Of a DNA stretch of 64,000 bases, positions 20,760-36,071 are shown in pieces. The position numbers and the translations under genes are program-made. Source of the DNA: an uncultured Bacteroidales bacterium. GTDB taxonomy: Bacteria > Bacteroidota > Bacteroidia > Bacteroidales > UBA3663. A model generated the notes under the pieces. The model was not told where the DNA came from. It searched no databases and saw nothing but the letters and a program-made list of their open reading frames with translations. Location of the stretch: positions 16,306 to 80,305 of the forward strand of contig CAMPAQ010000017.1 of assembly GCA_946631995.1 (NCBI GenBank), read 5' to 3'. Numbering within the stretch: the stretch's first letter is position 1; the number at the start of each line of letters is the position of its first letter.

Positions 20760-23700
20760 ATGAACGCATTATTCATTGCGCTGCTTTCCATCAATCTGAG
20801 TGGAACGTGGCAGTTTTCAATTGACCGCTCGGCCGAGGGTGTGCGTCCGCTGCACTACGACCAGACCATCGAGCTGCCGGGTTCGATGTTGACCAATGGC
20901 CTGGGCGATGACGTGACGGTCGATACCCGCTGGGTGGGCAGTCTGTACGACTCGTCGTACTTCTTTAACCCGAAGATGAAGCCTTACCGCGAGCCGGGCC
21001 GGATGAAGTTCCCCTTCTTCCTTACGCCCGAAAAGCATTACGTGGGCAACGCGTGGTACAGCCGCACCGTGCGCGTGCCGAAGAACTGGAAGGGACAGCG
21101 TGTGACGCTCTATCTGGAACGTCCGCACATCGAGACGACGCTCTATGTCAATGGTGACAGCATCGGCCACCAGATGTCGCTCAGCGTGCCGCACCAGTAT
21201 GACATCACGGACCACGTGAAATTCGGAAAGGAGAACACCATCGAACTGAAAATCTACAACGGCATCGAGAACGTCTGCGTCGGCCAAGATTCCCACAGTG
21301 TGACCGATCAGACGCAGGGCGACTGGAACGGCATCGTCGGCCAGATTGAGCTGCGCAACGAGCCTGTCATCTGGCGCAAGCGCGTCGAGCCGGACGTGGA
21401 CAATGCATTGGCCAAAATCTTCCTGAACGATACCGTCGTCGAGGTCAAGCTGGAGCAGCCGCTGCGCCTGTGGGACGAGTTCCACCCCGAACTCTACACC
21501 GTGACGGTCGATTATCGTGGCCAACAGGTTCCGGTCACTTTCGGTATGCGGAAGGTGGGCGTGCGCGGTCGCGACATCATGCTCAACGACAAGGTCCTGA
21601 AGGTGCGCGGCACGGTGGGCAACTGCTGTTTCCCCGAGACCGGCTATCCTCCGACAGACGTCGCCGCGTGGAAAGCCGTCTTCGCCAAGTGCAAGGAATA
21701 TGGCCTGAACACGATGCGATTCCACTCGTATTGTCCGCCCGAGGCTGCTTTCATTGCGGCCGATAGCCTTGGCTTCTATCTCCAGCCCGAAGGTCCGTCG
21801 TGGCCGAATCACGGCGTGCGTCTGGGCCAAGGACAAGCCATCGACAAATATCTGATGGAGGAGTGCAAGGCCATCATCGACCAATATGGCAGCCATCCGT
21901 CGTTCGTCATGCTTGCTGCGGGCAATGAGCCGGCCGGCCGATGGGTCGCCTGGTGCAACAAGTTCGTGCCCGAGATGCACCGCTATGACCCGACCCGCAT
22001 CTATGCCGATGCCTCGGTGGGCGGAGGTTGGGCATGGGCCGACAGCGCAGAATTCCACGTCAAGGGCGGTGCGCGCGGTCTCGATCCGTGGGACAAGGCA
22101 TTGCCGCAGTCGATGGACGATTTCGCCGATGGCATGGCCCTGCCGCGCAACTTCAAGCCGACGGCCGCCAAGCCCGTCAACACCGCGCCCATCGTGAGCC
22201 ATGAGACTGGCCAATGGTGCGCCTTCCCCGACCTGACAGAAATCGACCAATACACCGGCGCATACAAGGCACGCAACTTCGAGATTTTCAGCGATTTGTT
22301 GGCCGATGCCGGGATGTCGTCCATGAGCCGCAAGTTCCTGATGGCGAGCGGTAAGTTACAGACATTGGCCTACAAATACGACATCGAACGCAACCTGCGC
22401 ACGCCCGACTACGCGGGTTTCCTCCTGCTGGGCCTGAACGACTACAGCGGCCAGGGCACGGCGCTCGTCGGCCCGCTCAATGTGCATTGGCGCGAAAAGG
22501 GCTACTGCACGGCCGATGACTGGACCGAATTCTGCTCCGACGTCGTGCCATTGGCCAGATTCCCGAAATTCGTCTTTTCGGCCGATGACACCATCCGCAT
22601 CGGCACCATGCTCTACAATGCGGCCGATGAACGCAAGTCGGTCAACGACGAGCTGATGTACAGCTTTATGGCCGATGGACTTGAATTCCTGAACGGTATG
22701 GTCAAGACGGGCGACGACGTCATCTTCGTGCCCCGCGACAAGGACAAGGCGCAGAAGATCACCTTCATGCTGCGCACCGGCACGCACTCGAACCATTGGG
22801 ACTTCTGGGTCTATCCGGAGGTGTACGACGAGGCATCGGCCAACGACATCTACGTCTGCGACAGCCTCGACGAAAAGGCATTGGCCACACTCCAGAGCGG
22901 CGGCAAGGTCCTGCTCACGGCCGGCGGTAAGATACGTTATGGCAACGATGTGAAGCACCACTATCTGCCCGTCTTCTGGAACACCTCGTGGTTCAAGATG
23001 CGTCCGCCGCACACGACCGGCTCGTACATCGAGAACGACCATCCGATTTTCCGCGATTTTCCGACCGACGACTGGCAGAACCTCAACTGGTGGGAGCTTG
23101 TCAACCGCACGCAGGTGATGAACCTCGCGCACTTCCCGAAGGATTTCCAACCCATCGTGCAGCCCATCGACACGTGGCACATCTCGCGCAAGTTGGGTAT
23201 GCTGTTTGAGGCCAATGTCGCCGGCGGCCATCTCGTCATGACGACCATGGATTTGGCCAATGACCTTGACTCGCGCATCGTTGCCCGACAGCTGCGCCAC
23301 TCGATTCTGAACTACATGTCGAGCGACAGTTTCCGTCCGTCGGCCACCATCGACCCCGCCGTCATCACCGAGCTCTTCACGACCGAAGCTCCAGCCGTCA
23401 ACATGTTCACGCGCGACACGCCCGATGAGCTCAAGCCGCGCCTCGGTGCCGCCACGGTCTATGAACTCACGTTGCCCGCAGCGCCATCGGCCGACACCGC
23501 AAAATTCCATTTCGGCACCAACGTAGCGCCGTCGGGAAACACCTTGCAGGTCGATTCGCGCGGTTTCTTGGCCGATGGGAAGCCCGTCGTGCCTGTGATG
23601 GGCGAGATTCACTATGCCCGCGTGCCGCGTAGCGAGTGGAAGCGAGAACTCCAGAAGATGCGCGACGGCGGCGTGACCATCGTCTCGACCTACGTCTTCT

Positions 23701-25577
23701 GGCTGCATCATGAGCCAGTCGAGGGCCAATGGCGTTGGGACGACAACCGCGACCTGCGTGCCTTCATCGAGACCTGCCGTGAGGTCGGCCTGCCCGTCGT
23801 ACTGCGCGTCGGTCCGTTCTGCCACGGCGAAGCCCTGCAAGGTGGTTTCCCGACGTGGCTCGTCGAAAAGGCATCGGCCGACAGCAAGCAATACAAGCTG
23901 CGCAGCCTCGCGCCCGGCTTCATGGACGCTACGCGAAAATTATATGCCGAGATTTTCCGTCAGGTCGATGGCCTTCTGTTCAAGCAGGGCGGCCCCATCG
24001 TCGGAATGCAGATCGAGAACGAATGTCGCGGCCCATGGCCCTACTACAAGGCGCTGAAGCAGTTGGCCGTTGAAATCGGCTTCGACCTGCCGTTCTACAC
24101 CCGCACAGGCTGGCCCAAGCTGAACGGCCGCGAGGAGTTCGGCCAACTGCTGCCTCTCTATGGTGACTATGCCGACGGATTCTGGGAGCGTTCGATGAAG
24201 GATATGCCGGGCAGCTATCCCGACGCCTTCGTCTTCAAGCCAGGCCGCGTGTCGGAAAACATCGCCACCGAGACCTTCGCGAAATCCGAACTCGGCGCGG
24301 AAGGTGCATCGGCCACAAGCTACCCCTACCTCACCTGCGAGCTGGGCGGCGGCATGATGACGGCCTACCATCGTCGCGTGCGCATCTTCCCGAAGGATGC
24401 TTTGGCATTGGCCATCTGCAAGGTCGGTTCGGGCTCCAACCTGCCGGGCTACTACATGTACCACGGCGGCACCAATCCGGAGCCAGGCATGGCCGAAAAA
24501 CAGGCCAGCGCCGTGACGAACTACAACGACCTGCCGCAGATGAGCTACGACTTCCAGTGTCCCGTGGGCGAGGTCGGCCAAGTGAACGAATCGTACCATT
24601 GGACACGCCGTTTCCACCTCTTCCTGCACGATTTTGGGCCGATGCTACGCGACATGCCGGCCGTCTTCCCCGCCACCAACGACGAGAACGGACGCCGCGA
24701 CTCGACCCTGCGCTATGCCGTGCGCACCAACGGACGGAGCGGCTTCATCTTCGTCAACAACTACCGCCGTATGCAGCCGCTTTCGGCCAAGGAGGGCATC
24801 CAGTTCCGCTTCACATTGGCCGACAGCACCCAGCTCACCCTGCCCGCCATCGACATTGCGGCCGATGCCTGTTTCGTGCTCCCCTTCGGCTTGAAGTTGG
24901 CCAATGCCACCCTCGACTGGGCCACCGCTCAGCCCGTCTGCTGGTCGGCCGCGACGAAGACGCTCACCCTGGCCGAACTGCCCGGCATGGAGGCCGCCGT
25001 CAGCGTGGGCGGCATCACCAAGCTGCTCTCGGTTGACAAGCCATTGGCCATCGGCGGCATCACCATCCGCCTGCTCAGCGAGGCCCAGTCGCTTGCGGCC
25101 TATCTGGATAACGGCCAATGCACCATCGATCCCGACCGTTATGCGTTGGCCGAGACCGGTAAAACCATCGGCATCAAGCAGATACAGAAGGCTAAAGGCC
25201 TGCGTGAAGTGAAAAAAGGTTCGCAGAAGGTTGCCGAACAGCCATCGGACGATGACTACGCTCAGGCCGCCGTATGGCAGTTCTCGAAGCTCAAGGCATT
25301 GGCCGACAACGACATCGTGCAAATCAACTACGCGGGCGACGTGGCTCGTCTCTACGTGGACGGCCGCCTGGTGCAGGACAACCAGTGGAACGGCAACCCG
25401 ATGCTGGTGCACGCCTCGCAACTACGCGGAAAAAAAGTGCTGCTCAAGGTGCTCCCACTGGGCAAGGACTATCCGATTTACCTCCAGCCCGAACAGCGGG
25501 AGACATTGGCCAATGCGACTGACGAAGGCTTGTGTGAACTGAACGAAGTCAAGATTTTAACTCCAACTCAAAAATAA
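20760..25577 (+). CDS. two-catalytic-domain glycoside hydrolase: N-terminal GH2 (beta-galactosidase/glucuronidase-like) fused to C-terminal GH35 beta-galactosidase
   Basis: 1605 aa. The N-terminal half has the GH2 sugar-binding fold (RVTLYLERPHIETTLYVNGDSIGH) and a TIM barrel with AAGNEPAG (NEP acid/base). From about residue 880: GEIHYARVPRSEWKRELQKMRDGGVTIVSTYVFWLHHEP and GGPIVGMQIENE (GH35 signatures). There is no stop between the halves. Confidence 0.8.
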   Translation: MNALFIALLSINLSGTWQFSIDRSAEGVRPLHYDQTIELPGSMLTNGLGDDVTVDTRWVGSLYDSSYFFNPKMKPYREPGRMKFPFFLTPEKHYVGNAWYSRTVRVPKNWKGQRVTLYLERPHIETTLYVNGDSIGHQMSLSVPHQYDITDHVKFGKENTIELKIYNGIENVCVGQDSHSVTDQTQGDWNGIVGQIELRNEPVIWRKRVEPDVDNALAKIFLNDTVVEVKLEQPLRLWDEFHPELYTVTVDYRGQQVPVTFGMRKVGVRGRDIMLNDKVLKVRGTVGNCCFPETGYPPTDVAAWKAVFAKCKEYGLNTMRFHSYCPPEAAFIAADSLGFYLQPEGPSWPNHGVRLGQGQAIDKYLMEECKAIIDQYGSHPSFVMLAAGNEPAGRWVAWCNKFVPEMHRYDPTRIYADASVGGGWAWADSAEFHVKGGARGLDPWDKALPQSMDDFADGMALPRNFKPTAAKPVNTAPIVSHETGQWCAFPDLTEIDQYTGAYKARNFEIFSDLLADAGMSSMSRKFLMASGKLQTLAYKYDIERNLRTPDYAGFLLLGLNDYSGQGTALVGPLNVHWREKGYCTADDWTEFCSDVVPLARFPKFVFSADDTIRIGTMLYNAADERKSVNDELMYSFMADGLEFLNGMVKTGDDVIFVPRDKDKAQKITFMLRTGTHSNHWDFWVYPEVYDEASANDIYVCDSLDEKALATLQSGGKVLLTAGGKIRYGNDVKHHYLPVFWNTSWFKMRPPHTTGSYIENDHPIFRDFPTDDWQNLNWWELVNRTQVMNLAHFPKDFQPIVQPIDTWHISRKLGMLFEANVAGGHLVMTTMDLANDLDSRIVARQLRHSILNYMSSDSFRPSATIDPAVITELFTTEAPAVNMFTRDTPDELKPRLGAATVYELTLPAAPSADTAKFHFGTNVAPSGNTLQVDSRGFLADGKPVVPVMGEIHYARVPRSEWKRELQKMRDGGVTIVSTYVFWLHHEPVEGQWRWDDNRDLRAFIETCREVGLPVVLRVGPFCHGEALQGGFPTWLVEKASADSKQYKLRSLAPGFMDATRKLYAEIFRQVDGLLFKQGGPIVGMQIENECRGPWPYYKALKQLAVEIGFDLPFYTRTGWPKLNGREEFGQLLPLYGDYADGFWERSMKDMPGSYPDAFVFKPGRVSENIATETFAKSELGAEGASATSYPYLTCELGGGMMTAYHRRVRIFPKDALALAICKVGSGSNLPGYYMYHGGTNPEPGMAEKQASAVTNYNDLPQMSYDFQCPVGEVGQVNESYHWTRRFHLFLHDFGPMLRDMPAVFPATNDENGRRDSTLRYAVRTNGRSGFIFVNNYRRMQPLSAKEGIQFRFTLADSTQLTLPAIDIAADACFVLPFGLKLANATLDWATAQPVCWSAATKTLTLAELPGMEAAVSVGGITKLLSVDKPLAIGGITIRLLSEAQSLAAYLDNGQCTIDPDRYALAETGKTIGIKQIQKAKGLREVKKGSQKVAEQPSDDDYAQAAVWQFSKLKALADNDIVQINYAGDVARLYVDGRLVQDNQWNGNPMLVHASQLRGKKVLLKVLPLGKDYPIYLQPEQRETLANATDEGLCELNEVKILTPTQK

Positions 25578-25660
25578 AAATTCAGGGATTGGCGGATTTG
25601 GCAGAAACATCGACCATGAAAAATCCGGTCCGCCATTTCCTGGAACAATGAAAAACATTC

Positions 25661-27538
25661 ATGAAAAAATTACTCCACCTCCTTTCCTTATCCATCGCTC
25701 TGATTTGCCCTACCATCGCATCGGCACAGACATCGGCCACAACGACTCCGAGCAAAGAGGAATTGCTCAAACGCCTTGTGATTCAGAACCAGAAAATGCC
25801 GCAGGAACGCGTCCACATCGTGACCGACCGCAACCATTACCTGACTGGCGACACCATCTGGATGCGCGCATTCCTGGTCGATGGACTCTACAAGAAACCT
25901 GTCCACTACAGCCGATTCCTCTACGTCGAACTGCGCAACGAGGCCGACAGCCTCATCAGCCGCGTCAAGCTGCACGAACGACCCGAAAAGAACGACACCG
26001 TGATGCGCGGCTACTTGTCAACGGCACCCGAACTGCCCACGGGCATCTACACGATTGCGGCCTACACCCAATGGATGCTGAACAGCGGCGAAGAACTATT
26101 TTTCAAACGCAACGTGCAGTTGGTCAATGCCGACGACATCAGCAAAGACATATTCACCGAGCCGCTGGCAAACACGACGGGCTGCGATGCCTATCACCGC
26201 GTGGACAGCGCATCGCTCGCTAAGGCCGACGACGCCGTCATCGTGGTTCATCCGCTGGTGCAGACCGAAAAGAACATCTATGGCAGCCGCGAAAAGGTCA
26301 CGGTCAAAGTCCAGGCACCGCCATACAGCAGTCTGGCCATATCGGTGACCGACAATGCAGCAACCCAAATCGACCAACGAGCCATGATTCACTACAGCAT
26401 CCTGGGCCAGCCATATTGGCACAACATCGACTCAATCTATGCCGGAAAATTCCGCGAACCGACCATCTTGAACGAGATTTCGCAAGAGATTCGCGGAACA
26501 CTGCGTGGCACTCTGCGCCGACAGCCCAAGGCCAACACGATGATAACGCTCTTCTCCCCTTCTGCCAAGCTCTTCCGCATGACGCGCACCGACTCGCTGG
26601 GCAACTTCTGTTTCGAGAATTTCGACGCACCGGACACTTGTATGTTCAACCTGCGCTCGTTCTCCGACCGTGGCCGCGGCAAGGGTGAAATCATCATTGC
26701 GCCAAGCCCGTTGCCAGATGTCGTGCATCATCTGGAAGCGCCCATAAAGCCCGCTACGCGAACCATAACAAGCAGCAGCGACAGTGTTTTGGCCGACAAG
26801 ATGAAGCAACGCGTGCGTTTCAGCAGCGGCCAATGGGAAATCACGCTCGATGAAGTCGGCGTAGCGGCTCAAAAGAAACTGCGCGGCGAAGACGGCATCA
26901 GCAAATTTGCCGACCGCAAACTCGGCTACAAGGACATCCAGGAAATGAACGTAGCATCGCTCGAAGACCTTCTGATGCAGCTGCCAGGCGTATTCATCAC
27001 GACCGATACGGCCGGCAACCGCATCGCCAAATACCGCAACAAACCGTTGTACTTCTGGCTGAACGACGTCGAAGTCAGCCAATCAATCCGCGACGACGAG
27101 TCCGAATTTGAATACGTCAACAACTACTGCAACGTCAACTGCATTGAATACCTCGATTTGGTCGAAGTGACATACATCGGCTCATCGAACGCCAGAGACT
27201 TCAACTCATACGGAATACGAATCAAGGAAAATCCGACGCTGGCGAAAAGCTCGAACGACTTCAATTCCATCACTTTCAAGCCGTTGGGTCATCAGGTTCC
27301 ACGCGAATTCGGCCAAACCGACTATTCGACACAGGAAAAGCGTTTCGCCAACCCACCCGGCACCGACCAGCGCGCGACACTCTATTGGAATCCGGCACTT
27401 GAGATTGACAGCACAGGCGTCGCATCGTTCACTTTCTGGACCAACGACAACTACAAGACGCTCTACACAATCCGCGTAGAGGGCGTGTCGGAAAGCGGCA
27501 AGCTCATCGACGGCATCAAGCGCATCAAGATGCAATAA
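25661..27538 (+). CDS. secreted hypothetical protein (carboxypeptidase-regulatory / TonB-plug-like regions)
   Basis: Signal peptide MKKLLHLLSLSIALICPTIASAQ; MQLPGVFITTDTAGNRIAKYRNKPLYFWLNDVEV resembles a plug-type beta-sandwich. No catalytic motif. Confidence 0.6.
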   Translation: MKKLLHLLSLSIALICPTIASAQTSATTTPSKEELLKRLVIQNQKMPQERVHIVTDRNHYLTGDTIWMRAFLVDGLYKKPVHYSRFLYVELRNEADSLISRVKLHERPEKNDTVMRGYLSTAPELPTGIYTIAAYTQWMLNSGEELFFKRNVQLVNADDISKDIFTEPLANTTGCDAYHRVDSASLAKADDAVIVVHPLVQTEKNIYGSREKVTVKVQAPPYSSLAISVTDNAATQIDQRAMIHYSILGQPYWHNIDSIYAGKFREPTILNEISQEIRGTLRGTLRRQPKANTMITLFSPSAKLFRMTRTDSLGNFCFENFDAPDTCMFNLRSFSDRGRGKGEIIIAPSPLPDVVHHLEAPIKPATRTITSSSDSVLADKMKQRVRFSSGQWEITLDEVGVAAQKKLRGEDGISKFADRKLGYKDIQEMNVASLEDLLMQLPGVFITTDTAGNRIAKYRNKPLYFWLNDVEVSQSIRDDESEFEYVNNYCNVNCIEYLDLVEVTYIGSSNARDFNSYGIRIKENPTLAKSSNDFNSITFKPLGHQVPREFGQTDYSTQEKRFANPPGTDQRATLYWNPALEIDSTGVASFTFWTNDNYKTLYTIRVEGVSESGKLIDGIKRIKMQ

Positions 27539-27744
27539 AGGCAACAGGCAAGTTACATAAATCAAGAATTTGATAATCAGAAACTTCCTGAAAAAGTCCC
27601 AATAAAAATGGCGGCTTCATGTACAATGAGGCTGCCATTTGCCGTCTTGCGGCATTCAGGACATCGACAAACACGGCCGAACCACTGTCAGGAACCACCT
27701 CACGACATTGTTTTTTGAAATTGAAAGAATAAAAAGGGAATATT

Positions 27745-27777
27745 TTTGACCGACTATTCCGAAAAAAGCATACATTT
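27745..27777 (+). promoter_or_regulatory. Bacteroidetes sigma-A promoter (-33 TTTG, 21-nt spacer, -7 TACATTTG) upstream of structured element copy 2
   Basis: TTTG at 27745-27748, TACATTTG at 27770-27777; about 110 nt upstream of the element. Confidence 0.5.
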
Positions 27778-27867
27778 GCAGCCGCAAGATTTTCTGCACA
27801 ACCAATTAAAACCATAAACAAAAAAACAGACAAGAAAAGAAAGATATACTTCATACATATAGATGAC

Positions 27868-28045
27868 ATAGCATCCGCTTAAAACTTGCTTTCAGAAAAT
27901 TCGCCAAAATTTAAAAAGCAACTAAGAGTAAACAGTCTGGATGCTCACGCTGTTAGGCGTGGGCTTTTACTCGTATATAGTTGCATGGTGTTTGGCGATA
28001 CCTCTGAAAGCGTAGACGAATAAATTGTCCACGTTCTTTTTTTGT
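27868..28045 (+). ncRNA. conserved structured RNA element, copy 2, in the 5' leader of the secreted-protein gene at 28153
   Basis: Same architecture as copy 1. The outer stem is GCTTTCAGA (27888-27896) pairing with TCTGAAAGC (27993-28001). It differs from copy 1 at 4 positions and every change is compensated on the partner arm. The third stem also covaries (GCAACTA with TAGTTGC). Confidence 0.5.
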
Positions 28046-28152
28046 GCCTTTTTGACGACAATAACGACCTGTATCTTCTCATTACGACGCTGCCTCATCC
28101 GCAAGGACTGTGCAAGTCACACATATTATTAACTACTTAAAACCAAGAATTT

Positions 28153-29511
28153 ATGAAAAGACCATTGATTCTATTCACAGCATTGGCCATCACCGCGACG
28201 AGGCTCTTGGCCGATGTCCCGGCCGACTCCATCTGGCGCGAGATGCTCATCGGCTATGCAAGCCACAACACCCTGCTGTCGCAGAAATCGTGCGCAGAAG
28301 ACTTGACAGAGGCTATCAAGGGACTCCCGGAAATGTTCGGGCAGAAGGGAAAAAGCCCCTCACAGATTGCCTTCATCGGCCGACAACTTTCTAACCGCTA
28401 CTTCAGCGAAGTCTTCCCCAGCGACTACGCCCGCATCTATCTGGCCTCGGCGAAAGACAGCATCACGGAAAGCGAAGCGCGCGAGCTGTTGGACTATGTT
28501 GCGGCCAATGACTCATCCCTGAAAGTGCTGTTGCTGTGGACGGCTACCATGAACGAAGAGCAGACGGCCATCCGTATGGGCTATGTCAGGTTGCCGGCAT
28601 ACGTCAAACTGCAGCGCATCTGGAGACGTGACGACAAGTTCGACGCGCGAATTTTGACATATCAGCAAGGCTGGGCAATATATCACGGAGCGCGCCATGC
28701 GGCCGATGACTATGACCTGCTGCTGTGTGAAGTGCTCAAACTGCACGGCGGCGATATGACCAACAGCCAGAACATGAAACCAGTGCTCACACAATTTGGA
28801 GAACAACTAATAACGCAGACAGGCCAAGAGGTGTTCCCCGTCAACAATGCCAAAGAAAAGGCGAAGCAATGGGCCGACGAATACTGCGACAGCCTCTTCA
28901 TGAAAGACCTGGTACAAATGTTTTCTCCGCTCATGAGAGAAAACTTGAGCAAGGACGACCTTACAGCCGCAAGACAGGCATTGAACCGGCCACAAGTGCA
29001 ATTGGCCAACCAACACGTGAACGAGGCCGTACAAAAGGAATCGTTCCTGTCCGGAACCGCATCGCTCATCGTGGGTTCGCTTGGCAGTATGCTTGGGAGC
29101 ACTCCAGAGAACATCAAGGCCGTGAAGTGCCCCGAATCGTACAAAAAACTCTTCGACCAATATATGCAAACGAATGCTGGCAAACTGAACGAACTTCAAG
29201 GCTCTGTCGAGGCAGCCTTGCAAGAAAAAGGCATCGGCAATAATCCTGTAGCTCGTCAAATGATGAACGGCATGATTCAGTACATACAGAAAAACCTTCC
29301 TACGCTCATGCTGAACGCATATTACGGCACGGTGACCGAAGAAGACATGACCGCACTTATTGAGGTCGAGCAGGAACCAGCCGTGAAACGTCTGAGTGAG
29401 GCATCGGCCAAAACCATCAAGCCCATAGTTGCCAATGCCCAGGAACTTGGTAAGAAAATCTGCTACATCTACGCGGGCTACCTGATGTACTACAAAGCGG
29501 GAGAAAAGTAA
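28153..29511 (+). CDS. secreted hypothetical protein
   Basis: Signal peptide MKRPLILFTALAITATRLLADVPA; 452 aa, mostly helical composition. Preceded by copy 2 of the structured leader element. Confidence 0.6.
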   Translation: MKRPLILFTALAITATRLLADVPADSIWREMLIGYASHNTLLSQKSCAEDLTEAIKGLPEMFGQKGKSPSQIAFIGRQLSNRYFSEVFPSDYARIYLASAKDSITESEARELLDYVAANDSSLKVLLLWTATMNEEQTAIRMGYVRLPAYVKLQRIWRRDDKFDARILTYQQGWAIYHGARHAADDYDLLLCEVLKLHGGDMTNSQNMKPVLTQFGEQLITQTGQEVFPVNNAKEKAKQWADEYCDSLFMKDLVQMFSPLMRENLSKDDLTAARQALNRPQVQLANQHVNEAVQKESFLSGTASLIVGSLGSMLGSTPENIKAVKCPESYKKLFDQYMQTNAGKLNELQGSVEAALQEKGIGNNPVARQMMNGMIQYIQKNLPTLMLNAYYGTVTEEDMTALIEVEQEPAVKRLSEASAKTIKPIVANAQELGKKICYIYAGYLMYYKAGEK

Positions 29512-29552
29512 AACGGATTGGGCAAACCCAGACTCATTAATCGATTAGGGAC

Positions 29553-30311
29553 ATGAACACCAAACAACAGAAAATCAACCTATTGAAGTGGAAAAAGGCA
29601 TTGACCATCGCTTCCAGAGTCCTGCCAATCGTGGCACTGGCACTTATAATGTATTATCGTCTGTCAGGCGACAATGAAAAACTGCTGCCCGTAGTCATCA
29701 TTGCGCTGATACTTATACCCGTGTGGGGCATTTGCACTGTCATGCTGTACTTTGTGCAGAAAAAGACGCAAGTTGACATCATGCAGGTTCTGGAGCCGCG
29801 CGACGACCTGCGAGGTGTTGATATGACCAATCGCGTTGCGGAAGCCATCGGCCAAGACAAATGCAAGATCAAGAATTTTGTCATCGCCGACAATTCGGAA
29901 GATGCACAAAGGGTCATCAGATTGTATCGGGAAAACATGGAATCATTGGCAAGCAATGAACAAATCATGGCCGTAATCAATCGCAAAACGGCTCTGCAAT
30001 GGAATTGGGGCTGGTCGGGACTATGCTTCACCGACAAGCACCTGTATCTGCACCTGTTGAAGAACAATGCCTTTGTCGGCCTAACCTTCAGTTCCCACGA
30101 ATTGAAACTGCCGCTGAACGCTATCAAGAGCATTTATATCGGAGATTCAGTCGAATACAAAGGCTATCTGGGGAGCGAAGTCCACATCAACGGTATTGAG
30201 GTCGGCCTGTTGCGCATGGGCTACGGTTTCGGCAATTCCGAAGATGAACACCTCAAGCAATTGCTCAATGAGCTGTTCAAGGAGATTTTCCGAAAGCAAG
30301 AAACAACTTAA
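29553..30311 (+). CDS. hypothetical membrane protein (two N-terminal TM helices plus bacterial PH-like soluble domain)
   Basis: TM segments VLPIVALALIMYY and LLPVVIIALILIPVWGICTVMLYF; C-terminal soluble domain. Confidence 0.55.
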   Translation: MNTKQQKINLLKWKKALTIASRVLPIVALALIMYYRLSGDNEKLLPVVIIALILIPVWGICTVMLYFVQKKTQVDIMQVLEPRDDLRGVDMTNRVAEAIGQDKCKIKNFVIADNSEDAQRVIRLYRENMESLASNEQIMAVINRKTALQWNWGWSGLCFTDKHLYLHLLKNNAFVGLTFSSHELKLPLNAIKSIYIGDSVEYKGYLGSEVHINGIEVGLLRMGYGFGNSEDEHLKQLLNELFKEIFRKQETT

Positions 30312-30347
30312 TAATATATTTATCAACCATTAAAAACAAAAAAAATT

Positions 30348-30824
30348 ATGGGACTCATTACAAACTATTTCCGAAACTACGTGAATTTTTCAGGTCGCAC
30401 GTCACGCAGCGACTATTGGCTCACGTCATTCTACCTGTTCCTGATTGCGTTGCCCATCTGCATATTCTTCGGTGTGGGCTGTTATTTGGGAATGAAGGCA
30501 ATCGAAAATGCATCTTCGACCGAGGACTATACCGCATTTTTCGCCCATCCGATTACCGTTGCCGGCATATTAATCATGACGCTATTCGTGCTGGCTACCT
30601 TCCTTCCGACCATGTCGATGATGGTGCGCCGTCTGCGCGATGCAGGACAATCGCCTTGGTGGGCTGCGGTCTCCTATGGCATTACGTTGCTGAAAGGATT
30701 CCTACCTTTCGGCAAGCCCATCAACTTCATCGTAACGGTCTACATCCTGATTCTTCTGTGCAAGCCAAGCGTAAAAGACTTTGATTCCAACCACACAACC
30801 GATTCAGAAACCACTACAAAATAA
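30348..30824 (+). CDS. DUF805 (YhaH-like) inner membrane protein
   Basis: FSGRTSRSDYWLTSFYLFLI is the DUF805 signature; multi-TM, 158 aa. Confidence 0.75.
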   Translation: MGLITNYFRNYVNFSGRTSRSDYWLTSFYLFLIALPICIFFGVGCYLGMKAIENASSTEDYTAFFAHPITVAGILIMTLFVLATFLPTMSMMVRRLRDAGQSPWWAAVSYGITLLKGFLPFGKPINFIVTVYILILLCKPSVKDFDSNHTTDSETTTK

Positions 30825-30836
30825 TTACACACAACT

Positions 30837-33836
30837 ATGAAAAAGATTTCTTTGATTTTGCTTGCAGTCCTCTCACTGACGGCGTGCAAGAGGGATTCGT
30901 CCGTAGTCTATCTGAACGGCGACGACGACGACATCATCATCCGTGTAGATGACGGCATGAAGGTCAACCTGACGGTCAACTGGAGCGATCTCGCCACCGC
31001 TCCGGACGGCATGACGGTCTATCTCTACCCGACGGGCAACGACACCGTGGACAGCACCGTCCGCTCGTGGCACTTCGACAACGTGCAGTCGGCTTCGGTC
31101 ACGGTACCCGAACAGGACTATTCCGTCATCTGTTTCAACCAGTCGGAGAACGAGCTTGCCGGCTACGTGTTCGATTTCCGCGACTACGCGACCGCAACGG
31201 TGACGGCCAAGGACCTGTCGAACCTTGCGCCATTGGCCATAGCCTCGATGAGCTCGCTGCAATCGACCCGAGCCCTGAACCTGATGGGCGTGCTCAAGCC
31301 GGTGAATGTGGTCAAGACGATGTCGCTCAAGATCCACGTAGCGGGCTTCAACGAGCGCGTCGAAGTGAAGGGTACGCTGTCCAACATGCCCGCCGGCGTG
31401 ACCATGTGCGACCGCAAGCCGCTGCCCAAGCCCGTTGACCTGACACTGCCGACGAAGGACTGGACGGTCAAGGCGACATCCGACGACGAGATCGACCTGG
31501 ACATCACGTTCAATTCCTTCGGCATATTCATGGACGATGAGACCCGCGCGGCAGGCAGCGGTGACGACGACTTTGTGGCCGAAACCAGAGTCGCGCTCGA
31601 CGACAGCGACCTGCGCAACATCCTGCACCTCGAAATCACAGCCGAGGACGGCACCGTCACGAAGCTCGACTACGATGTCACCCAGGAGCTCATCCGTCAA
31701 TATCGCATAGCGATCGAGAGCGAGGCGACAAGCTCCAACTCCACACCGCAGTTTGACAACCAGTTTTTCTTCTCGTACCATGCGGCCGACACCACAGCGA
31801 CCCTGGTCAGCGGCGTGGCCATGGGCAAGGTGGAGATTCCGGAGTACGTCCAGCATGACGGCCTGTCGTACAAGGTGACGGAAATCGGGGCACAGGCTTT
31901 TCGTGGCTGCACATATATGACATCCGTTTCCATCCCCGAAAGCGTGACCCGAATACGAAGTTATGCATTTGCGGAATGCGCCGGCCTATCGTCCCTCTCA
32001 TTGCCACAGTCGCTTAGGTTCATCGGAGTAAGAGCCTTTGACCAATGCCGAACTCTGACCGAAGTCACAATTCCGGAGCAGGTGGACAGTTTAGGAGGCT
32101 ATGCATTCGGTAATTGCCAGATGCTTACGAAAGTCAATTACAACGCGCGGCATTGCAATTATGATTATGATGAAAGTGCATTCACACATATTAGTGAGGG
32201 TGACACAGGTCTGGGCGTCACGACATTGAACATCGGAAATCAGGTTGAACATATCCCTGCTTGGGTATTCTCGGAGCTCAGTAACCTGAAGACCATGACA
32301 ATCCCGAATTCAGTGACAAGCATCGGCAGTAGTGCGTTCTCTCGTTGCACTGGCCTGACAAGCGTCACGATTCCGAGCAGCGTGACCAGCATCGGCAGCA
32401 GTGCGTTCTCTCGTTGCACTGGGCTGACAAGCATCACGATTCCGAGCAGCGTGACGAGCATCGGCGACGGTGCGTTCTATGATGTCGCGAATGTTGTTTA
32501 CAACGGCTCAGCAGAGGGCGCGCCGTGGGGAGCATTCATCATAAACGGTATCGTTGAAGATGGTATTGTCTTTGACGCTGAAAAAACGCAACTTATAAAG
32601 TATTGCGGAAATGGTGGTGATGTCACTATCCCTGCGACGGTTACAAGCATCGGCGAAAGTGCGTTCTCTCGTTGCACTGGCCTGACAAGCGTCACGATTC
32701 CGAGCAGCGTGACAAGCATCGGCGACGATGCGTTCGATGGCTGCACTGGCCTGACAAGCGTCACGATTCCAAGCAGCGTGACGAGCATCGGCGACTATGC
32801 GTTCTCGGGCTGCACTGGCCTGACGAGCGTCACGATTCCGAGCAGCGTGACGAGCATCGGCGACTATGCGTTCCAGTATTGCTCTGGCCTGACAAGCGTC
32901 ACGATTCCGAGCAGCGTGACGAGCATCGGCAGAAGTGCGTTCAATGACTGCACTGGACTGACAAGCGTCACGATTCCGAGCAGCGTGACAAGCATCGACA
33001 ACTATGCGTTCTATGGCTGCACTGGCCTGACGAGCGTCACGATTCCGAGCAGCGTGACGAGCATCGGCTACAATGCGTTCTATGATGTCGCGAATGTTGT
33101 TTACAACGGCTCAGCAGATGGCGCGCCGTGGGGAGCAAACAAAATCATATCTGGAGTCGTTGATGGTGATTTTATCCTTGCTGACGAAGAAAAGACCAAA
33201 CTTACAAAGTACATCGGCAAAGGTGGAAATGTCACTATCCCTGCGACGGTGACAAGCATCGGCGACAATGCGTTCCGAGGCTGCACTGGGCTGACAAGCG
33301 TCACGATTCCGAGCAGCGTGACAAGCATCGGCAGAAGTGCGTTCAATGACTGCACTGGACTGACAAGCGTCACGATTCCGAGCAGCGTGACAAGCATCGG
33401 CGACTTTGCGTTCGACGGCTGCACTGGCTTAACAAGCGTCACGATTCCGGACGGCGTGACCAGCATCGGCAACTTTGCGTTCTCAGGCTGCACTGGCCTG
33501 ACAAGCGTCACGATTCCGGACGGCGTGACAAGCATCGGCAAATGTGCGTTCTATGGCTGCACTGGCCTGACAAGCGTCACGATTCCGGACGGCGTGACAA
33601 GCATCGGCGACGGTGCATTCTATGGCTGCACTGGCCTGACAAGCGTCACGATTCCGAGCAGCGTGACAAGCATCGGCTACCGGGCGTTCTATGGCTGCAC
33701 TGGCCTGACAAGCGTCACGATTCCGAGCAGCGTGACCAGCATCGACGACGATGCATTCTATGGGATTGACATCATTTACTACAATGGAAGTGCATCCGGT
33801 GAACCGTGGGGAGCAAACAAAATAGTTAGGCAGTAA
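30837..33836 (+). CDS. BspA-type leucine-rich-repeat (LRR_5) cell-surface lipoprotein
   Basis: Lipoprotein signal MKKISLILLAVLSLTAC. About 300-aa N-terminal domain, then more than 25 units of CTGLTSVTIPSSVTSIG(D/S/R)xAF (23 aa = 69 bp). The C-terminal cap YYNGSASGEPWGANKIVRQ has two internal near-copies. Confidence 0.85.
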   Translation: MKKISLILLAVLSLTACKRDSSVVYLNGDDDDIIIRVDDGMKVNLTVNWSDLATAPDGMTVYLYPTGNDTVDSTVRSWHFDNVQSASVTVPEQDYSVICFNQSENELAGYVFDFRDYATATVTAKDLSNLAPLAIASMSSLQSTRALNLMGVLKPVNVVKTMSLKIHVAGFNERVEVKGTLSNMPAGVTMCDRKPLPKPVDLTLPTKDWTVKATSDDEIDLDITFNSFGIFMDDETRAAGSGDDDFVAETRVALDDSDLRNILHLEITAEDGTVTKLDYDVTQELIRQYRIAIESEATSSNSTPQFDNQFFFSYHAADTTATLVSGVAMGKVEIPEYVQHDGLSYKVTEIGAQAFRGCTYMTSVSIPESVTRIRSYAFAECAGLSSLSLPQSLRFIGVRAFDQCRTLTEVTIPEQVDSLGGYAFGNCQMLTKVNYNARHCNYDYDESAFTHISEGDTGLGVTTLNIGNQVEHIPAWVFSELSNLKTMTIPNSVTSIGSSAFSRCTGLTSVTIPSSVTSIGSSAFSRCTGLTSITIPSSVTSIGDGAFYDVANVVYNGSAEGAPWGAFIINGIVEDGIVFDAEKTQLIKYCGNGGDVTIPATVTSIGESAFSRCTGLTSVTIPSSVTSIGDDAFDGCTGLTSVTIPSSVTSIGDYAFSGCTGLTSVTIPSSVTSIGDYAFQYCSGLTSVTIPSSVTSIGRSAFNDCTGLTSVTIPSSVTSIDNYAFYGCTGLTSVTIPSSVTSIGYNAFYDVANVVYNGSADGAPWGANKIISGVVDGDFILADEEKTKLTKYIGKGGNVTIPATVTSIGDNAFRGCTGLTSVTIPSSVTSIGRSAFNDCTGLTSVTIPSSVTSIGDFAFDGCTGLTSVTIPDGVTSIGNFAFSGCTGLTSVTIPDGVTSIGKCAFYGCTGLTSVTIPDGVTSIGDGAFYGCTGLTSVTIPSSVTSIGYRAFYGCTGLTSVTIPSSVTSIDDDAFYGIDIIYYNGSASGEPWGANKIVRQ
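32300..33770 (+). repeat. near-identical 69-bp tandem repeats (LRR_5 units) with higher-order ~600-bp duplication, inside the BspA-like CDS
   Basis: CTGACAAGCGTCACGATTCCGAGCAGCGTGAC(A/G)AGCATCGGC recurs at least 15 times at 69-bp spacing. TTCTATGATGTCGCGAATGTTGTTTACAACGGCTCAGCAGA(G/T)GGCGCGCCGTGGGGAGCA occurs at ~32476 and ~33078. Confidence 0.9.
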
Positions 33837-33920
33837 AAAAAACTATCGGCCAAAGGAGAAATGACCTTTATGTAAATCCGTTAAGAGTTGGGGGCAAATT
33901 CCCTTTGGCCATTATTGTTG
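33819..33920 (+). repeat. ~100-bp direct repeat, copy A (overlaps the last 4 codons of the BspA-like gene)
   Basis: ATAGTTAGGCAGTAAAAAAAACTATCGGCCAAAGGAG...CCGTTAAGAGTTGGGGGCAAATTCCCTTTGGCCATTA. It contains two hairpins (ATAGTT with AACTAT; GGCCAAAGG with CCTTTGGCC). Confidence 0.8.
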
Positions 33921-33939
33921 AAAAAAAAATATACCCAAA

Positions 33940-34539
33940 ATGGAAGAAATGAAGATTTACCGCAAGCGCGGGATGGCAGTGTTCTCAATCATCTTTTTTT
34001 TGGTCGCAGCCTGTGCCTTGGGCTATTGCATAACCCTCCTCTCCCCGATGATCAGCTCCGAAGATGATCTCTTGATATCGGCCATACTGACGTTCAACGA
34101 GGTGTTGATATGCCTGATTATTGTGTTTATGCTATTGTATGCAATATCCCTATGCATGAAGGTGTTTTCAGACAAGCCCTATATCGTCGTGGGGAAAGAT
34201 TCCGTGACGGAATTCCCTTCATTTGGCGATGAGCAGGTCTTTGCATACCAGGACATTGAGTCCGTCCGGCACAGATTCGTAAAATACAGATATAGAGGCA
34301 GAGCTGGTGCCTATGGAGTCTGGATGATACACATCGTCGAGAAGGAAAATGCCGAAGCAAGACGTGTCCGCGAAGCCTCCGGGCTGACACACTGGCGTCT
34401 GCGTTACCAAAAATTCATGTACGGAGAGCACTTCTTCCTCGAAAGTGAGAACATGACCATGAAGGGAGCCGACATTGCCAAGACAATCAACGAGCGTATT
34501 GCCGCCCACAACGAGCGGCATCGGCCAACAATCGAATAA
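33940..34539 (+). CDS. hypothetical membrane protein (2 TM plus PH-like soluble domain)
   Basis: 199 aa; TM helices AVFSIIFFLVAACALGYCITLL and LICLIIVFMLLYAISL. Flanked by ~100-bp direct repeats. Confidence 0.55.
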   Translation: MEEMKIYRKRGMAVFSIIFFLVAACALGYCITLLSPMISSEDDLLISAILTFNEVLICLIIVFMLLYAISLCMKVFSDKPYIVVGKDSVTEFPSFGDEQVFAYQDIESVRHRFVKYRYRGRAGAYGVWMIHIVEKENAEARRVREASGLTHWRLRYQKFMYGEHFFLESENMTMKGADIAKTINERIAAHNERHRPTIE

Positions 34540-34545
34540 AAAAAT

Positions 34546-34648
34546 CTTTATAGTTAGGCAGTAAAAAAAACTATCGGCCAAGGGGAAAATGCCCTTTTTG
34601 GAAATCCGTTAAGAGTTGGAGGCAAATCCCCTTTGGCCATTACTATTC
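34546..34648 (+). repeat. ~100-bp direct repeat, copy B (downstream of gene 33940..34539, upstream of the TonB_C gene)
   Basis: Roughly 85% identical to copy A and includes the ATAGTTAGGCAGTAA string that forms the stop region of the BspA-like gene. The stem arms change in a compensatory way (GGCCAAGGGG with CCCCTTTGGCC). Confidence 0.8.
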
Positions 34649-34684
34649 TTGTGCTACAAGACTGAAAAACGAAAAAATGAAAAT

Positions 34685-35167
34685 ATGAAAAGGAACAATT
34701 GTCTTTTTGCCATCCTGCTATTGTGTTTATGTGCAATGCCATTGGCTGCTCAAAACGAACCAGCAAGTCAGGAAACGGTGACGACAAATACTCCTCCCAC
34801 CTATCCTGGTGGCGAGCAAGCCTACAAAAAGTTTGTCCAAAAGAATCTGAAATACCCCGACTATTGCAGACAGTTCGAGGCAGAAGGAGTCTGCACAATG
34901 GCATTCATCGTGAATGCAGATGGTACCATCGGTGAAATAGAAGCGAAGAATTGCAAGGTTACACATATAAACTACGCAAAACTCGAGAAATACACGGCTG
35001 AAGAACGAAAGAACATCAAGAAAGAATGTTCTCGACAAATGGCGAAAGAGGGGTTACGCATCATCCGCAAGATGAAGAATTGGAATCCCGCCCGATTGAA
35101 CGGAAAAGCTATTCCATCGACTGTAACACAAGATTTGGATTTCAAAATCGATTATGTTGACGATTGA
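34685..35167 (+). CDS. secreted TonB C-terminal-domain (energy-transducer TonB_C) protein
   Basis: ORF 34616..35167 trimmed to MKRNNCLFAILLLCLCAMPLAAQ. PPTYPGGEQAYKKFVQKNLKYP ... GVCTMAFIVNADGTIGEIEA matches the TonB_C fold. Confidence 0.65.
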   Translation: MKRNNCLFAILLLCLCAMPLAAQNEPASQETVTTNTPPTYPGGEQAYKKFVQKNLKYPDYCRQFEAEGVCTMAFIVNADGTIGEIEAKNCKVTHINYAKLEKYTAEERKNIKKECSRQMAKEGLRIIRKMKNWNPARLNGKAIPSTVTQDLDFKIDYVDD

Positions 35168-35219: not shown

Positions 35220-36071
35220 TTATTCTTCTCCCTTCACCGCCTCGCAAATCCTGACAGCCTCAACAGCCTCGCGCACATCGTGTACGCGCAGGATGTGTGC
35301 GCCCGCCTCGACGGCCAATGTGTTGAGCACGGTCGTGCCATTGAGCGCGTGGTCCGGGTCATTACCCAAGAGTTTGAAGATCATGCTCTTGCGGCTGATG
35401 CCGACCAGCATCGGGTAGGCAGGGAAATCGGCGATGAGCTGCGGCAGGCGGCGTATCCAGAGGTAATTGTCGGCCAACGTCTTGGAAAAGCCGTAGCCCG
35501 GGTCGAGGATGACCGTGCCGCGCGTGCTACGCGGATTTTGGGCAAAGGCATCGGACAAGGCGGCCAGCCGCTCGCGGAAAAAGTCATCGACCTGCGCGCT
35601 GTCGGCCGTCAGGATGTAGGGGGCGCCGGTGCGTGCCACGACGTCGAACATGGACGCGTCGCGCGTGCCCGAATAGACATCGTTTATAATGTCGGCCCAA
35701 AGTCGGGTGACGGCGGCCTCGGCCACCTCCGCGCGGTAGGTATCGACCGAAACCGGAACATCGGCCGACGCAACCACCTCGCGCACGATGGGCAGACCCC
35801 ACTCAAGGCGGCGCAGCTCCTCGGCGGCCGACGGCGGGGTGTAGCCGGGACGGGTGCTGCACGCGCCGACGTCAATCATCTGAGCACCGTCGGCCAGCAT
35901 CCGGCCAACGCGCCTCCGCAGGGAATCGGCATCGGACGAAACCGGAAAATCGGTGTTCAGCGAGCGGGAACCTGCGAAAAAGGAATCTGGAGTGAGGTTG
36001 ACTATGCCCATCACAATGGGGCGTTCATAATGGAGCTTGCGGCCATCGCGCAAAATGATATCGAAAAACAT
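35220..36071 (-). CDS. folP: dihydropteroate synthase
   Basis: ORF 35220..36428 trimmed to MFFDIILRDGRKL. IVMGIVNLTPDSFF, MIDVGACSTRPG, ILDPGYGFSKT and GISRKS are DHPS motifs. A TATTTTTG -7 box on the minus strand sits about 21 nt upstream of this ATG and supports the shorter start. Confidence 0.8.
   Translation of the reverse strand: MFFDIILRDGRKLHYERPIVMGIVNLTPDSFFAGSRSLNTDFPVSSDADSLRRRVGRMLADGAQMIDVGACSTRPGYTPPSAAEELRRLEWGLPIVREVVASADVPVSVDTYRAEVAEAAVTRLWADIINDVYSGTRDASMFDVVARTGAPYILTADSAQVDDFFRERLAALSDAFAQNPRSTRGTVILDPGYGFSKTLADNYLWIRRLPQLIADFPAYPMLVGISRKSMIFKLLGNDPDHALNGTTVLNTLAVEAGAHILRVHDVREAVEAVRICEAVKGEE

What the first reader, a model, noticed from the sequence alone, without database searches (positions are those of the whole stretch)
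33819..34648. Small membrane-protein gene bracketed by ~100-bp direct repeats that include the stop region of the upstream gene
The sequence ATAGTTAGGCAGTAA(A)8CTATCGGCCAA(A/G)GG...CCGTTAAGAGTTGG(G/A)GGCAAAT(T)CCCTTTGGCCATTA appears at 33819-33920 and again at 34546-34648, precisely flanking the 199-aa ORF at 33940-34539. Copy A overlaps the last codons (IVRQ*) of the BspA-like gene. Copy B carries the same IVRQ-stop string although no such gene precedes it. So either the intervening gene was inserted by a duplicative event that copied 100 bp of target sequence, or a second BspA-like paralog once ended there and was deleted. Each repeat folds into two hairpins whose arms change in a compensatory way between copies (GGCCAAAGG with CCTTTGGCC versus GGCCAAGGGG with CCCCTTTGGCC). 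This suggests a functional terminator or regulatory RNA structure, not a neutral scar.
Basis: seen in the sequence. Interest (0 to 1): 0.55.

Follow-up and report, generated by a model that had tools for sequence, protein, structure and literature searches.

The report
Conserved hairpin repeat bracketing an orphan gene
A real ~98-bp direct repeat brackets a small orphan membrane-protein gene in an uncultured Bacteroidales genome, but it is a terminator-like hairpin that follows surface-protein genes, and its second copy is the leftover end of a lost BspA-like gene, so it is a modest, mostly ordinary finding.

Summary
The repeat is real: window 33822-33919 and 34550-34647, 98 nt, 90% identical. 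It brackets a genuine 199-aa gene (dN/dS 0.25), an ORFan with two TM helices. The core is one 63-nt imperfect hairpin with a U-rich tail.

Across six variants, no pair changes on both sides, and both window copies are weakened versions of a near-perfect consensus. The "first hairpin" is only -0.8 kcal/mol.

Related contigs rule out a duplicative insertion. Relatives carry the gene with only the upstream copy, followed by a 259-aa gene. Conspecific strains with an Mfa-like gene instead of BspA upstream still carry the IVRQ-stop tail at copy B. The junction at copy B sits on an ATA microhomology.

The hairpin always starts 7-11 nt after a stop codon. It travels with the upstream gene block and is far more conserved than synonymous sites. 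No recombinase lies within 64 kb, no Rfam family matches, and I found no dispersed copies.

Best reading: a lineage-specific intercistronic terminator or attenuator hairpin in a strain-variable surface-protein operon. Interest is low to moderate.

The parts
27741..27778 (+). Two exact Bacteroidetes-type -7 boxes (TAnnTTTG at 27741 and 27771), each with a TTTG 22-23 nt upstream. Candidate promoter for the whole co-directional block 28153-35167.
   Evidence: these are the only exact boxes on the + strand of 27.5-35.3 kb. The consensus is taken from PMC7366714. Inferred, not shown.
30837..33836 (+). BspA-like leucine-rich-repeat surface lipoprotein gene (999 aa; DUF5119 + LRR_5) ending ...PWGANKIVRQ*.
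   Evidence: LRR_5 E = 6.6e-179. One search shows the three module ends.
33822..33847 (+). Tail A: the last four BspA codons, the stop codon and an A8 run (ATAGTTAGGCAGTAAAAAAAACTATC). Identical to tail B.
33848..33919 (+). Unit A: 63-nt hairpin (33848-33910) plus the ATTATTGTT tail. A weakened copy with 5 private substitutions (-23.1 kcal/mol).
33940..34539 (+). 199-aa ORFan membrane-protein gene: two TM helices plus a conserved soluble C-terminal domain.
   Evidence: dN/dS 0.25 against the 87% relative; hydropathy. (only its own cluster in 1.84e9 representatives).
34540..34552 (+). Spacer that belongs to the 199-aa gene module (shared with relatives L002 and L006), ending in the ATA microhomology at the deletion/recombination joint (34550-34552).
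34553..34575 (+). Tail B: remnant of a BspA-like 3' end (GTTAGGCAGTAA + A-run), with no gene attached.
   Evidence: also present in strains L037/L039, which lack BspA at copy A.
34576..34647 (+). Unit B: 63-nt hairpin (34576-34638) plus the ATTACTATT tail (-27.6 kcal/mol).
34685..35167 (+). TonB_C-domain protein gene (160 aa with signal peptide), the last gene of the block. It is convergent with folP (35220-36071, minus strand).

Best explanation
What it is: the repeated unit is a lineage-specific, selectively constrained hairpin of about 75 nt (17 pairs, 25-nt loop, AUUAUUGUU tail). It sits immediately after the stop codon of surface-protein genes (BspA-like or Mfa-like) inside a strain-variable, co-directional gene block of an uncultured Bacteroidales species.

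How it most likely works (inferred): it acts on the + strand transcript as an intercistronic intrinsic terminator or attenuator, or as a 3'-end-stabilising stem-loop. This would set the expression of the large upstream surface-protein gene apart from the small membrane-protein genes that follow.

How the direct repeat arose (largely shown):
- Copy A is the hairpin that came with the present BspA gene.
- Copy B is the hairpin of another BspA-like gene. Its body, together with the 259-aa gene that follows the 199-aa gene in relatives, was lost in a deletion joined at a 3-nt ATA microhomology.
- That deletion left the last codons (VRQ-stop), the A-run and the hairpin in front of the TonB_C gene.

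It is not a target-site duplication.
For: Position: the hairpin begins 7-11 nt after a stop codon in all five contexts. These are BspA in window A, the BspA remnant in B, the Mfa-like gene in L006 and L037, and a 16-codon remnant ending ...YSVRAATMS* in L002.

Linkage to the upstream gene: between strain types, homology starts exactly at the unit's left edge (L037:9109 = window 33845). Unit A is 12% diverged, against 2.3% for the 199-aa gene, about 2% for tail plus unit B and 0.4% for TonB_C.

Origin of copy B: the tail is present in L037/L039, which lack BspA at A. In relatives L002 and L006 the 199-aa gene is followed by ...TCTTTATA|CATGG and a 259-aa gene, whereas the window reads ...TCTTTATA|GTTAGGCAGTAA. 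BspA reads ...AAAATA|GTTAGGCAGTAA.

Constraint: 1-5 differences in the 63-nt hairpin, against 13-14 expected from dS = 0.25-0.27 (P from 5e-6 to 4e-3).

Structure: the consensus folds at -36.5 kcal/mol with z = -4.5. The terminator scan flags both copies. Other gene 3' ends in this window carry 10-16-bp hairpins of -25 to -33 kcal/mol, often with weak U tracts.

Operon context: six co-directional genes with spacers of 41/36/12/103/145 nt. Exact -7 boxes occur only upstream of the first gene.

Exclusions: no recombinase in 64 kb. No Rfam family matches. No further copies were found.
Against: - There is no transcript data, so termination or attenuation is inferred only.
- The U tract (AUUAUUGUU) is weak, and the 25-nt loop is large for an intrinsic terminator. 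Its 3' two-thirds (AAATCCGTTAAGAGTT) are invariant in all six variants, which hints at a sequence-specific role that a plain terminator does not need.
- The unit is kept in near-consensus form after loss of the upstream gene (L002, copy B). It therefore serves more than that gene.
- There is no covariation, so RNA-level against DNA-level function, and the strand, are unresolved.
- The ancestral arrangement 199-259-...-BspA-unit-TonB_C was not found in any contig.
- The search for other proteins ending ...GANKIVRQ* found none.
- The alternative that the tail is not BspA-native cannot be excluded. It would need two joints at the same ATA.
Confidence: 0.5

Rival explanations
1. Promoter, 5' leader or small regulatory RNA for the downstream gene. 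The unit would carry a degenerate Bacteroidetes promoter in its 3' arm and tail (GTTG-N21-TATTGTTG), or a structured leader or sRNA whose conserved loop is the functional part. It would drive or regulate whichever small membrane-protein gene follows.
For: - The unit precedes three different genes: the 199-aa gene, the 159-aa gene in L002, and TonB_C.
- It is retained in near-perfect form where the upstream gene has been lost (L002, copy B).
- No exact -7 box lies between the unit and the downstream start codons.
- The tail contains near-matches to TAnnTTTG: TATTGTTG and TATTCTTG.
- The loop segment AAATCCGTTAAGAGTT is invariant.
Against: - The near -7 box is not conserved (TATTGTAA in L037A) and is shifted in copy B.
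- Between strain types, the unit's divergence tracks the upstream block and not the downstream gene.
- No Rfam match and no covariation.
- The distance to the start codon varies (29, 46 and 52 nt).
Confidence: 0.17
2. Recombination module or cassette boundary. The hairpin would be the site of a trans-encoded site-specific recombinase (integron attC-like or rAID-1-like), or a structure-prone hotspot, at which gene blocks are swapped.
For: - Breakpoints fall exactly at the unit's edges in several genomes. On the left: BspA tail, Mfa tail, L002 remnant. On the right: 199-aa, 159-aa, TonB_C.
- The unit is the best-conserved piece of a mosaic locus.
- The genes are co-directional, small and ORFan.
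- GTTAGGC at the A/B joint matches the integron core GTTRRRY (own knowledge of the consensus).
Against: - None of about 45 ORFs scanned across the 64 kb is a recombinase, integrase or transposase.
- The unit is absent from most junctions: DUF805-BspA, 199-259 and 159-199.
- There are no RYYYAAC/GTTRRRY cores at the base of the stem. GTTAGGC lies about 16 nt outside the hairpin and has no partner.
- Breakpoints at gene ends are expected anyway, because selection keeps genes intact.
Confidence: 0.1
3. Small mobile palindromic element (MITE- or REP-like) that inserted independently after several genes.
For: - A discrete palindromic module of about 70 nt, at least 88% identical (9 of about 75 nt for the most divergent pair) and mostly over 94% identical, lies in different flanking contexts.
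- Assemblies break at it (L041-L043).
Against: - There are only two copies in 64 kb, both at one locus, and none in the 9 kb of alternative sequence in L037.
- The 17-mer gave only chance hits in 185,579 species genomes and in viral contigs.
- There is no consistent target-site duplication.
- Copy B carries 21-24 nt of adjacent BspA coding sequence, which an element insertion would not bring along.
Confidence: 0.08
4. Duplicative insertion of the 199-aa gene that copied about 100 bp of target sequence.
For: Direct repeats closely flank the ORF.
Against: - The copies are 10% diverged and have different histories. The tail is present at B but absent at A in L037/L039.
- Relatives have the gene with no downstream copy.
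- No known transposition mechanism makes 98-bp target duplications (own knowledge).
- There is no transposase.
Confidence: 0.03

Closest known systems
Rho-independent (intrinsic) terminators and intercistronic stem-loops in operons, such as REP/BIME-type mRNA stabilisers in enterobacteria
   Same: It is a stable hairpin placed a few nucleotides after a stop codon, followed by a U-rich stretch and lying between co-directional genes. Its energy and stem length are similar to other gene-end hairpins in this same window.
   Different: The apical loop is unusually large (25 nt) and its 3' part is invariant. The U tract is weak. The whole 75 nt is conserved at sequence level across contexts and lineages, well beyond what a generic terminator needs. 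It is not dispersed genome-wide like REP. Activity is untested.
Integron attC sites and gene cassettes
   Same: Imperfect palindromes of about 60-100 nt lie between small, co-directional, often ORFan genes, and module boundaries fall at the repeat.
   Different: No integrase is present in 64 kb. There are no R''/R' core sites at the stem base. The repeat is missing from most junctions. It is conserved in sequence, whereas attC sites are conserved only in structure.
rAID-1 recombinase-associated gene arrays of Bacteroidales (bioRxiv 10.1101/471110)
   Same: The host order is Bacteroidales, and arrays of small co-directional genes carry repetitive intergenic sequence.
   Different: rAID-1 is defined by a XerD-family recombinase at the head of the array, repeats between essentially all ORFs, and immunity-gene homologs. 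None of these is found here.
FopS and other Bacteroides intergenic sRNAs (Rfam RF04319)
   Same: These are short structured intergenic RNAs with paralogous copies in Bacteroidota. A genuine FopS copy lies at 8324-8392 in this window.
   Different: The unit does not score against FopS or any other Rfam model, and it has no recognisable promoter of its own.

Membership tests
Integron attC site / gene cassette | IntI-type tyrosine recombinase adjacent to the array | tested here: not met
   Pfam scans of about 45 ORFs across the 64 kb found no recombinase or integrase.
Integron attC site / gene cassette | Complementary core sites RYYYAAC ... GTTRRRY forming the base of the hairpin | tested here: not met
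   The stem base is ATcGGCC...GGCCAT. The only GTTRRRY match (GTTAGGC) lies about 16 nt 5' of the hairpin and has no RYYYAAC partner.
Integron attC site / gene cassette | One site at the 3' end of every cassette | tested here: not met
   There is no unit at the DUF805-BspA (12 nt), 199-259 (15 nt) or 159-199 (280 nt) junctions.
rAID-1 array | XerD-family recombinase heading the array, with repeats between all ORFs | tested here: not met
   Definition. No recombinase was found. The unit occupies only 2 of 5 junctions in the window block.
rAID-1 array | Genes homologous to toxin-immunity genes | tested here: inconclusive
   The 199-, 252-, 452-, 159- and 259-aa proteins have no Pfam family above the curated cut-off; the 199-aa protein gives only a sub-threshold WLS-like_TM hit. 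The 199-aa protein is an ORFan. No immunity-specific library was searched.
REP / BIME / MITE dispersed palindromic repeat | Many copies dispersed at unrelated loci in the genome | tested here: inconclusive
   Only the two local copies occur in 64 kb plus 9 kb. There were no true hits in 185,579 species genomes or in viral contigs. However, the rest of this genome could not be searched, and the collections evidently lack this lineage (against L039).
REP / BIME / MITE dispersed palindromic repeat | Target-site duplication flanking each insertion (MITE) | tested here: not met
   The flanks differ among copies and show no consistent duplication.
Intrinsic terminator | Stable stem-loop directly downstream of a stop codon | tested here: met
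   The hairpin lies 7-11 nt after a stop codon in five contexts. Energies are -23 to -36.5 kcal/mol, and the consensus z-score is -4.5.
Intrinsic terminator | U tract immediately 3' of the stem | tested here: inconclusive
   The tail is AUUAUUGUU or AUUACUAUU (6 U of 9). The simple scan flags it through an alternative inner stem. Other gene-end hairpins in this window also have weak U tracts.
Intrinsic terminator | Transcript 3' ends at the site | not testable with these tools
   No transcriptome data are available.
Known RNA families (Rfam 15, including FopS) | Score at or above the gathering threshold | tested here: not met
   The best hit is MIR169_2 at 24.6 bits against a threshold of 50, a generic long-hairpin match. 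The only true hit in the window is FopS at 8324-8392.
Transposition-type target-site duplication | Near-identical short duplications created at insertion, with an empty site in relatives | tested here: not met
   The copies are 10% diverged. The tail is present at only one copy in L037/L039. Relatives have the gene without the second copy.

The most novel reading that the evidence does not exclude
The 75-nt hairpin is a portable junction module. It would be a sequence-specific site for a recombinase or structure-specific nuclease encoded elsewhere in the genome, at which Bacteroidales strains exchange whole surface-protein gene blocks (BspA-like against Mfa-like) and shuffle small orphan membrane-protein genes. 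That would amount to a recombinase-unlinked cassette system distinct from integrons and rAID-1.
Probability: 0.08. Interest if true: 0.65.

Novelty: new member of a known kind. Interest (0 to 1): 0.27.

Why it matters
If the main reading is right, this is a tidy example of how a strain-variable surface-protein locus in a gut or rumen Bacteroidales species is rebuilt. Gene blocks are swapped and deleted at gene ends, and a constrained intercistronic hairpin survives each event. It gives a concrete candidate terminator/attenuator to test in a phylum whose transcription signals are poorly catalogued. It would matter more only if the hairpin proved to be a recombination site or a new regulatory RNA. 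The invariant loop and the breakpoints at both edges keep that possibility open, but at low probability.

Tried and rejected
- Rfam, at gathering and at permissive thresholds: no family for the unit.
- Collection scans for the unit: 6 viral and 24 genome hits, all chance 17-mer matches in unrelated phyla. Two metagenome scans gave 0 hits. Those negatives are weak, because JGI contig L039 carries matching copies.
- Search for other BspA-like proteins ending ...GANKIVRQ*: only short LRR fragments with other C-termini. Dead end.
- Apparent similarity between the unit and the 81 nt upstream of the 81%-identical TonB_C ortholog (L044): not above shuffles. Rejected.
- A minus-strand mini-ORF through the unit (MAKGDLPPTLNGF...): copy A has a premature stop and the substitutions are mostly non-synonymous (by inspection). 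Rejected.
- Strand bias of wobble-preserving transitions in the stem: 2 favour the + strand and 3 favour the - strand (derived). No signal.
- AlphaFold2 on the 199-aa protein: pLDDT 50, so no fold search was run.
- Remote homologs of the 199-aa protein: none in 1.84e9 representatives.
- Exact look-ups of DUF805 and BspA: only window-type contigs.
- Covariance model with filters off: no divergent copies.


Full report
**1. Observation**

The direct repeat exists. Window 33822-33919 and 34550-34647 are 98 nt long and 90% identical without gaps. A 26-nt stretch of the unit occurs exactly twice in the 64-kb window, where shuffles give none. A profile search and a covariance model run with filters off find no further copy.

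- The repeat brackets the 199-aa ORF at 33940-34539.
- Copy A contains the last four codons and the stop of a 999-aa BspA-type LRR lipoprotein gene at 30837-33836 (LRR_5 E = 6.6e-179, DUF5119).
- Copy B has the same ATAGTTAGGCAGTAA string with no such gene in front of it.

**2. Anatomy**

The conserved core is about 75 nt, ATCGGCCAAAGGGGAAATGCCC-(25-nt loop)-GGGCAAATCCCCTTTGGCC-ATTATTGTT. It is a single hairpin of 17 pairs with an A.A/A.A internal loop.

No Rfam family matches. The best score is a generic long-hairpin match to a plant miRNA model, far below threshold. The one true RNA hit in the window is a FopS sRNA at 8324-8392. Together with the Mfa-like, BspA and DUF5119 genes, it places the organism in Bacteroidales.

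**3. Relatives**

The 199-aa protein is an ORFan. It has two related clusters (95% and 87% identity) among 5.8e9 proteins, and only its own cluster among 1.84e9 representatives. It is nonetheless a real gene: dN/dS is 0.25 at dS = 0.25 against the 87% relative, and it has two TM helices plus a conserved soluble domain.

Contigs encoding it or its neighbours gave six distinct unit variants in five contexts:

| Contigs | Arrangement |
|---|---|
| Window type (window, L001/L040/L046, L038/L045/L049) | DUF805 - BspA - tail+unitA - 199 - tail+unitB - TonB_C - folP |
| Alternative strain type of the same species (L037, L039) | 1963-aa - 517-aa - Mfa_like_1 (...SIRAVIVPN*) - unitA' - 199 - IVRQ-tail+unitB - TonB_C - folP |
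| L006 | Mfa-like - unit - 199 - 259-aa gene |
| L002-L004 | DUF805 - 16-codon remnant (...YSVRAATMS*) - unit - 159-aa gene - 199 - 259-aa gene |

**4. Test of the 'compensatory' claim**

I counted the 17-pair structure on the six variants:

- 94% of cells pair.
- No pair changes on both sides.
- Two pairs vary by a one-sided G.U wobble.
- Four pairs simply lose pairing in some copies.

The L002 copy is a near-perfect palindrome (-36.5 kcal/mol, z = -4.5). The window's copies are weakened versions of it: A folds at -23.1 and B at -27.6 kcal/mol, with z about -2.0 and -2.4. The claim is not supported.

**5. Origin of the repeat**

A duplicative insertion is excluded for three reasons:

- Relatives have the gene with no downstream copy.
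- In L037 and L039 only copy B has the IVRQ tail.
- The copies differ by 10%, while the gene between them differs by 2.3% between strains.

The junction at copy B can be read directly. After the 199-aa stop, L006 and L002 read ...AAAAAATCTTTATA|CATGG, the start of the 259-aa gene. The window reads ...AAAAAATCTTTATA|GTTAGGCAGTAA, and the BspA 3' end reads ...GCAAACAAAATA|GTTAGGCAGTAA.

One deletion joined at the ATA microhomology explains copy B. It would have removed the 259-aa gene and the body of a second BspA-like gene.

The alternative, that the tail is not native to BspA, needs two independent joints at the same ATA and is less parsimonious. It cannot be excluded. The homology between the BspA internal and terminal modules ends at exactly this point. 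There is also a faint resemblance among the BspA, Mfa and L002 tails, which I saw by eye and could not show to be significant.

**6. What the unit is attached to**

Between the two strain types, homology with the window begins exactly at the unit's left edge (L037:9109 = window 33845). Nothing in the 9.1 kb upstream of that point in L037 matches the window at DNA or protein level.

Divergence between the window and L037:

| Segment | Divergence |
|---|---|
| Unit A | 12% |
| 199-aa gene | 2.3% |
| Tail + unit B | about 2% |
| TonB_C | 0.4% |

The unit therefore travels with the upstream surface-protein block. In every context the hairpin starts 7-11 nt after a stop codon, either of an intact gene or of a remnant.

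**7. Constraint**

With dS of 0.25-0.27 between the L002 lineage and the others, about 13-14 differences are expected in 63 neutral positions. The observed number is 1-5 (P from 5e-6 to 4e-3). The unit is either under purifying selection or has spread recently. Either way it is not a decaying scar. This assumes the unit shares the history of the neighbouring gene.

**8. Function**

These points are shown:

- The position after stop codons.
- The stable hairpin and the U-rich tail AUUAUUGUU.
- Similarity in energy and stem length to other gene-end hairpins in this genome (10-16 bp, -25 to -33 kcal/mol, often with weak U tracts).
- Six co-directional genes with spacers of 41/36/12/103/145 nt.
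- The only exact Bacteroidetes -7 boxes (TAnnTTTG; consensus from PMC7366714) lie upstream of the first gene, at 27741 and 27771.

From these I infer that the units are intercistronic terminator/attenuator or 3'-end-stabilising hairpins. They would separate expression of the large surface-protein gene from that of the small membrane-protein genes behind it.

Several points count against a plain terminator:

- The 25-nt loop is large, and its 3' part is invariant.
- The U tract is weak.
- The unit is retained after loss of the upstream gene.

I therefore keep three rivals: a promoter, leader or sRNA role (0.17), a recombination module (0.10) and a small mobile palindrome (0.08).

**9. Comparison with known systems**

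- Integron attC: there is no integrase among about 45 ORFs scanned across 64 kb. There are no core sites at the stem base, and the unit is missing from most junctions.
- rAID-1 arrays (10.1101/471110): no XerD recombinase, and repeats are not present at all junctions.
- REP or MITE: only the two local copies. The 17-mer gave only chance hits in 185,579 species genomes and in viral contigs. There is no target-site duplication. The rest of this genome could not be searched, and the metagenome collection evidently lacks this lineage (against L039).

**10. Verdict**

What remains is a lineage-specific, constrained, terminator-like intercistronic hairpin in a strain-variable surface-protein operon. 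One copy is orphaned by a microhomology-joined deletion. That makes it a new member of a known kind, of low to moderate interest.

Noticed in passing
window 8324-8392 (-): A FopS-family sRNA (Rfam RF04319, 70.1 bits against a gathering score of 56) preceded by a TAnnTTTG-type box (TACCTTTG). It marks the genome as Bacteroidota.
   Followed up: partly
window 30837-33836 (+): The BspA-like gene is built from 69-nt (23-aa LRR) tandem units, 81-89% identical. It has three module ends (...YNGSAxGxPWGA at 32523, 33126 and 33804), as if three BspA units had been fused. The MAG copy (L001 5516-5644) has a 129-N scaffold gap inside these repeats and therefore no BspA gene call.
   Followed up: partly
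L037 1-9108 and L039 1-9108, against window 20760-33844: Two strain types of the same species differ completely upstream of unit A. One has a giant 1963-aa CHB_HEX_C protein, a 517-aa Flg_new protein and a 530-aa Mfa_like_1 protein. The other has GH2/35, MG2, 452-aa, 252-aa, DUF805 and BspA. The left end of this replacement was not found.
   Followed up: partly
L041 1-96, L042 1-59, L043 2-92: Three independent metagenome contigs begin inside or next to unit B. Assemblers evidently break at this repeat or at the strain-variable boundary.
   Followed up: no
window 29553-30311, 30348-30824, 33940-34539; L002 3977-4456 and 5352-6131: A cluster of small, mostly family-less membrane proteins (252 aa, DUF805 158 aa, 199 aa, and in relatives 159 aa and 259 aa). 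Each has TM helices followed by a beta-rich soluble domain. The 199-aa protein has no homolog outside its own cluster in 1.84e9 representatives.
   Followed up: partly
Metagenome-contig collection against L039: Two pattern scans of the JGI metagenome collection returned nothing, although JGI contig 3300036472|Ga0393253_00023 (L039) carries copies that match both patterns. Zero hits in that collection are not evidence of absence for this lineage.
   Followed up: yes
window 27741-27778 (+): Two exact TAnnTTTG boxes with TTTG 22-23 nt upstream lie in the 615-nt gap before the 452-aa gene. They are the only ones on the + strand of 27.5-35.3 kb, which suggests a single promoter region for the six-gene block.
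   Followed up: no
window 51627-52706 (-) and 20760-25577 (+): An RHS-repeat/DUF3836 protein, and a 1605-aa protein that fuses GH2 and GH35 domains. Both are unrelated to the finding.
   Followed up: no
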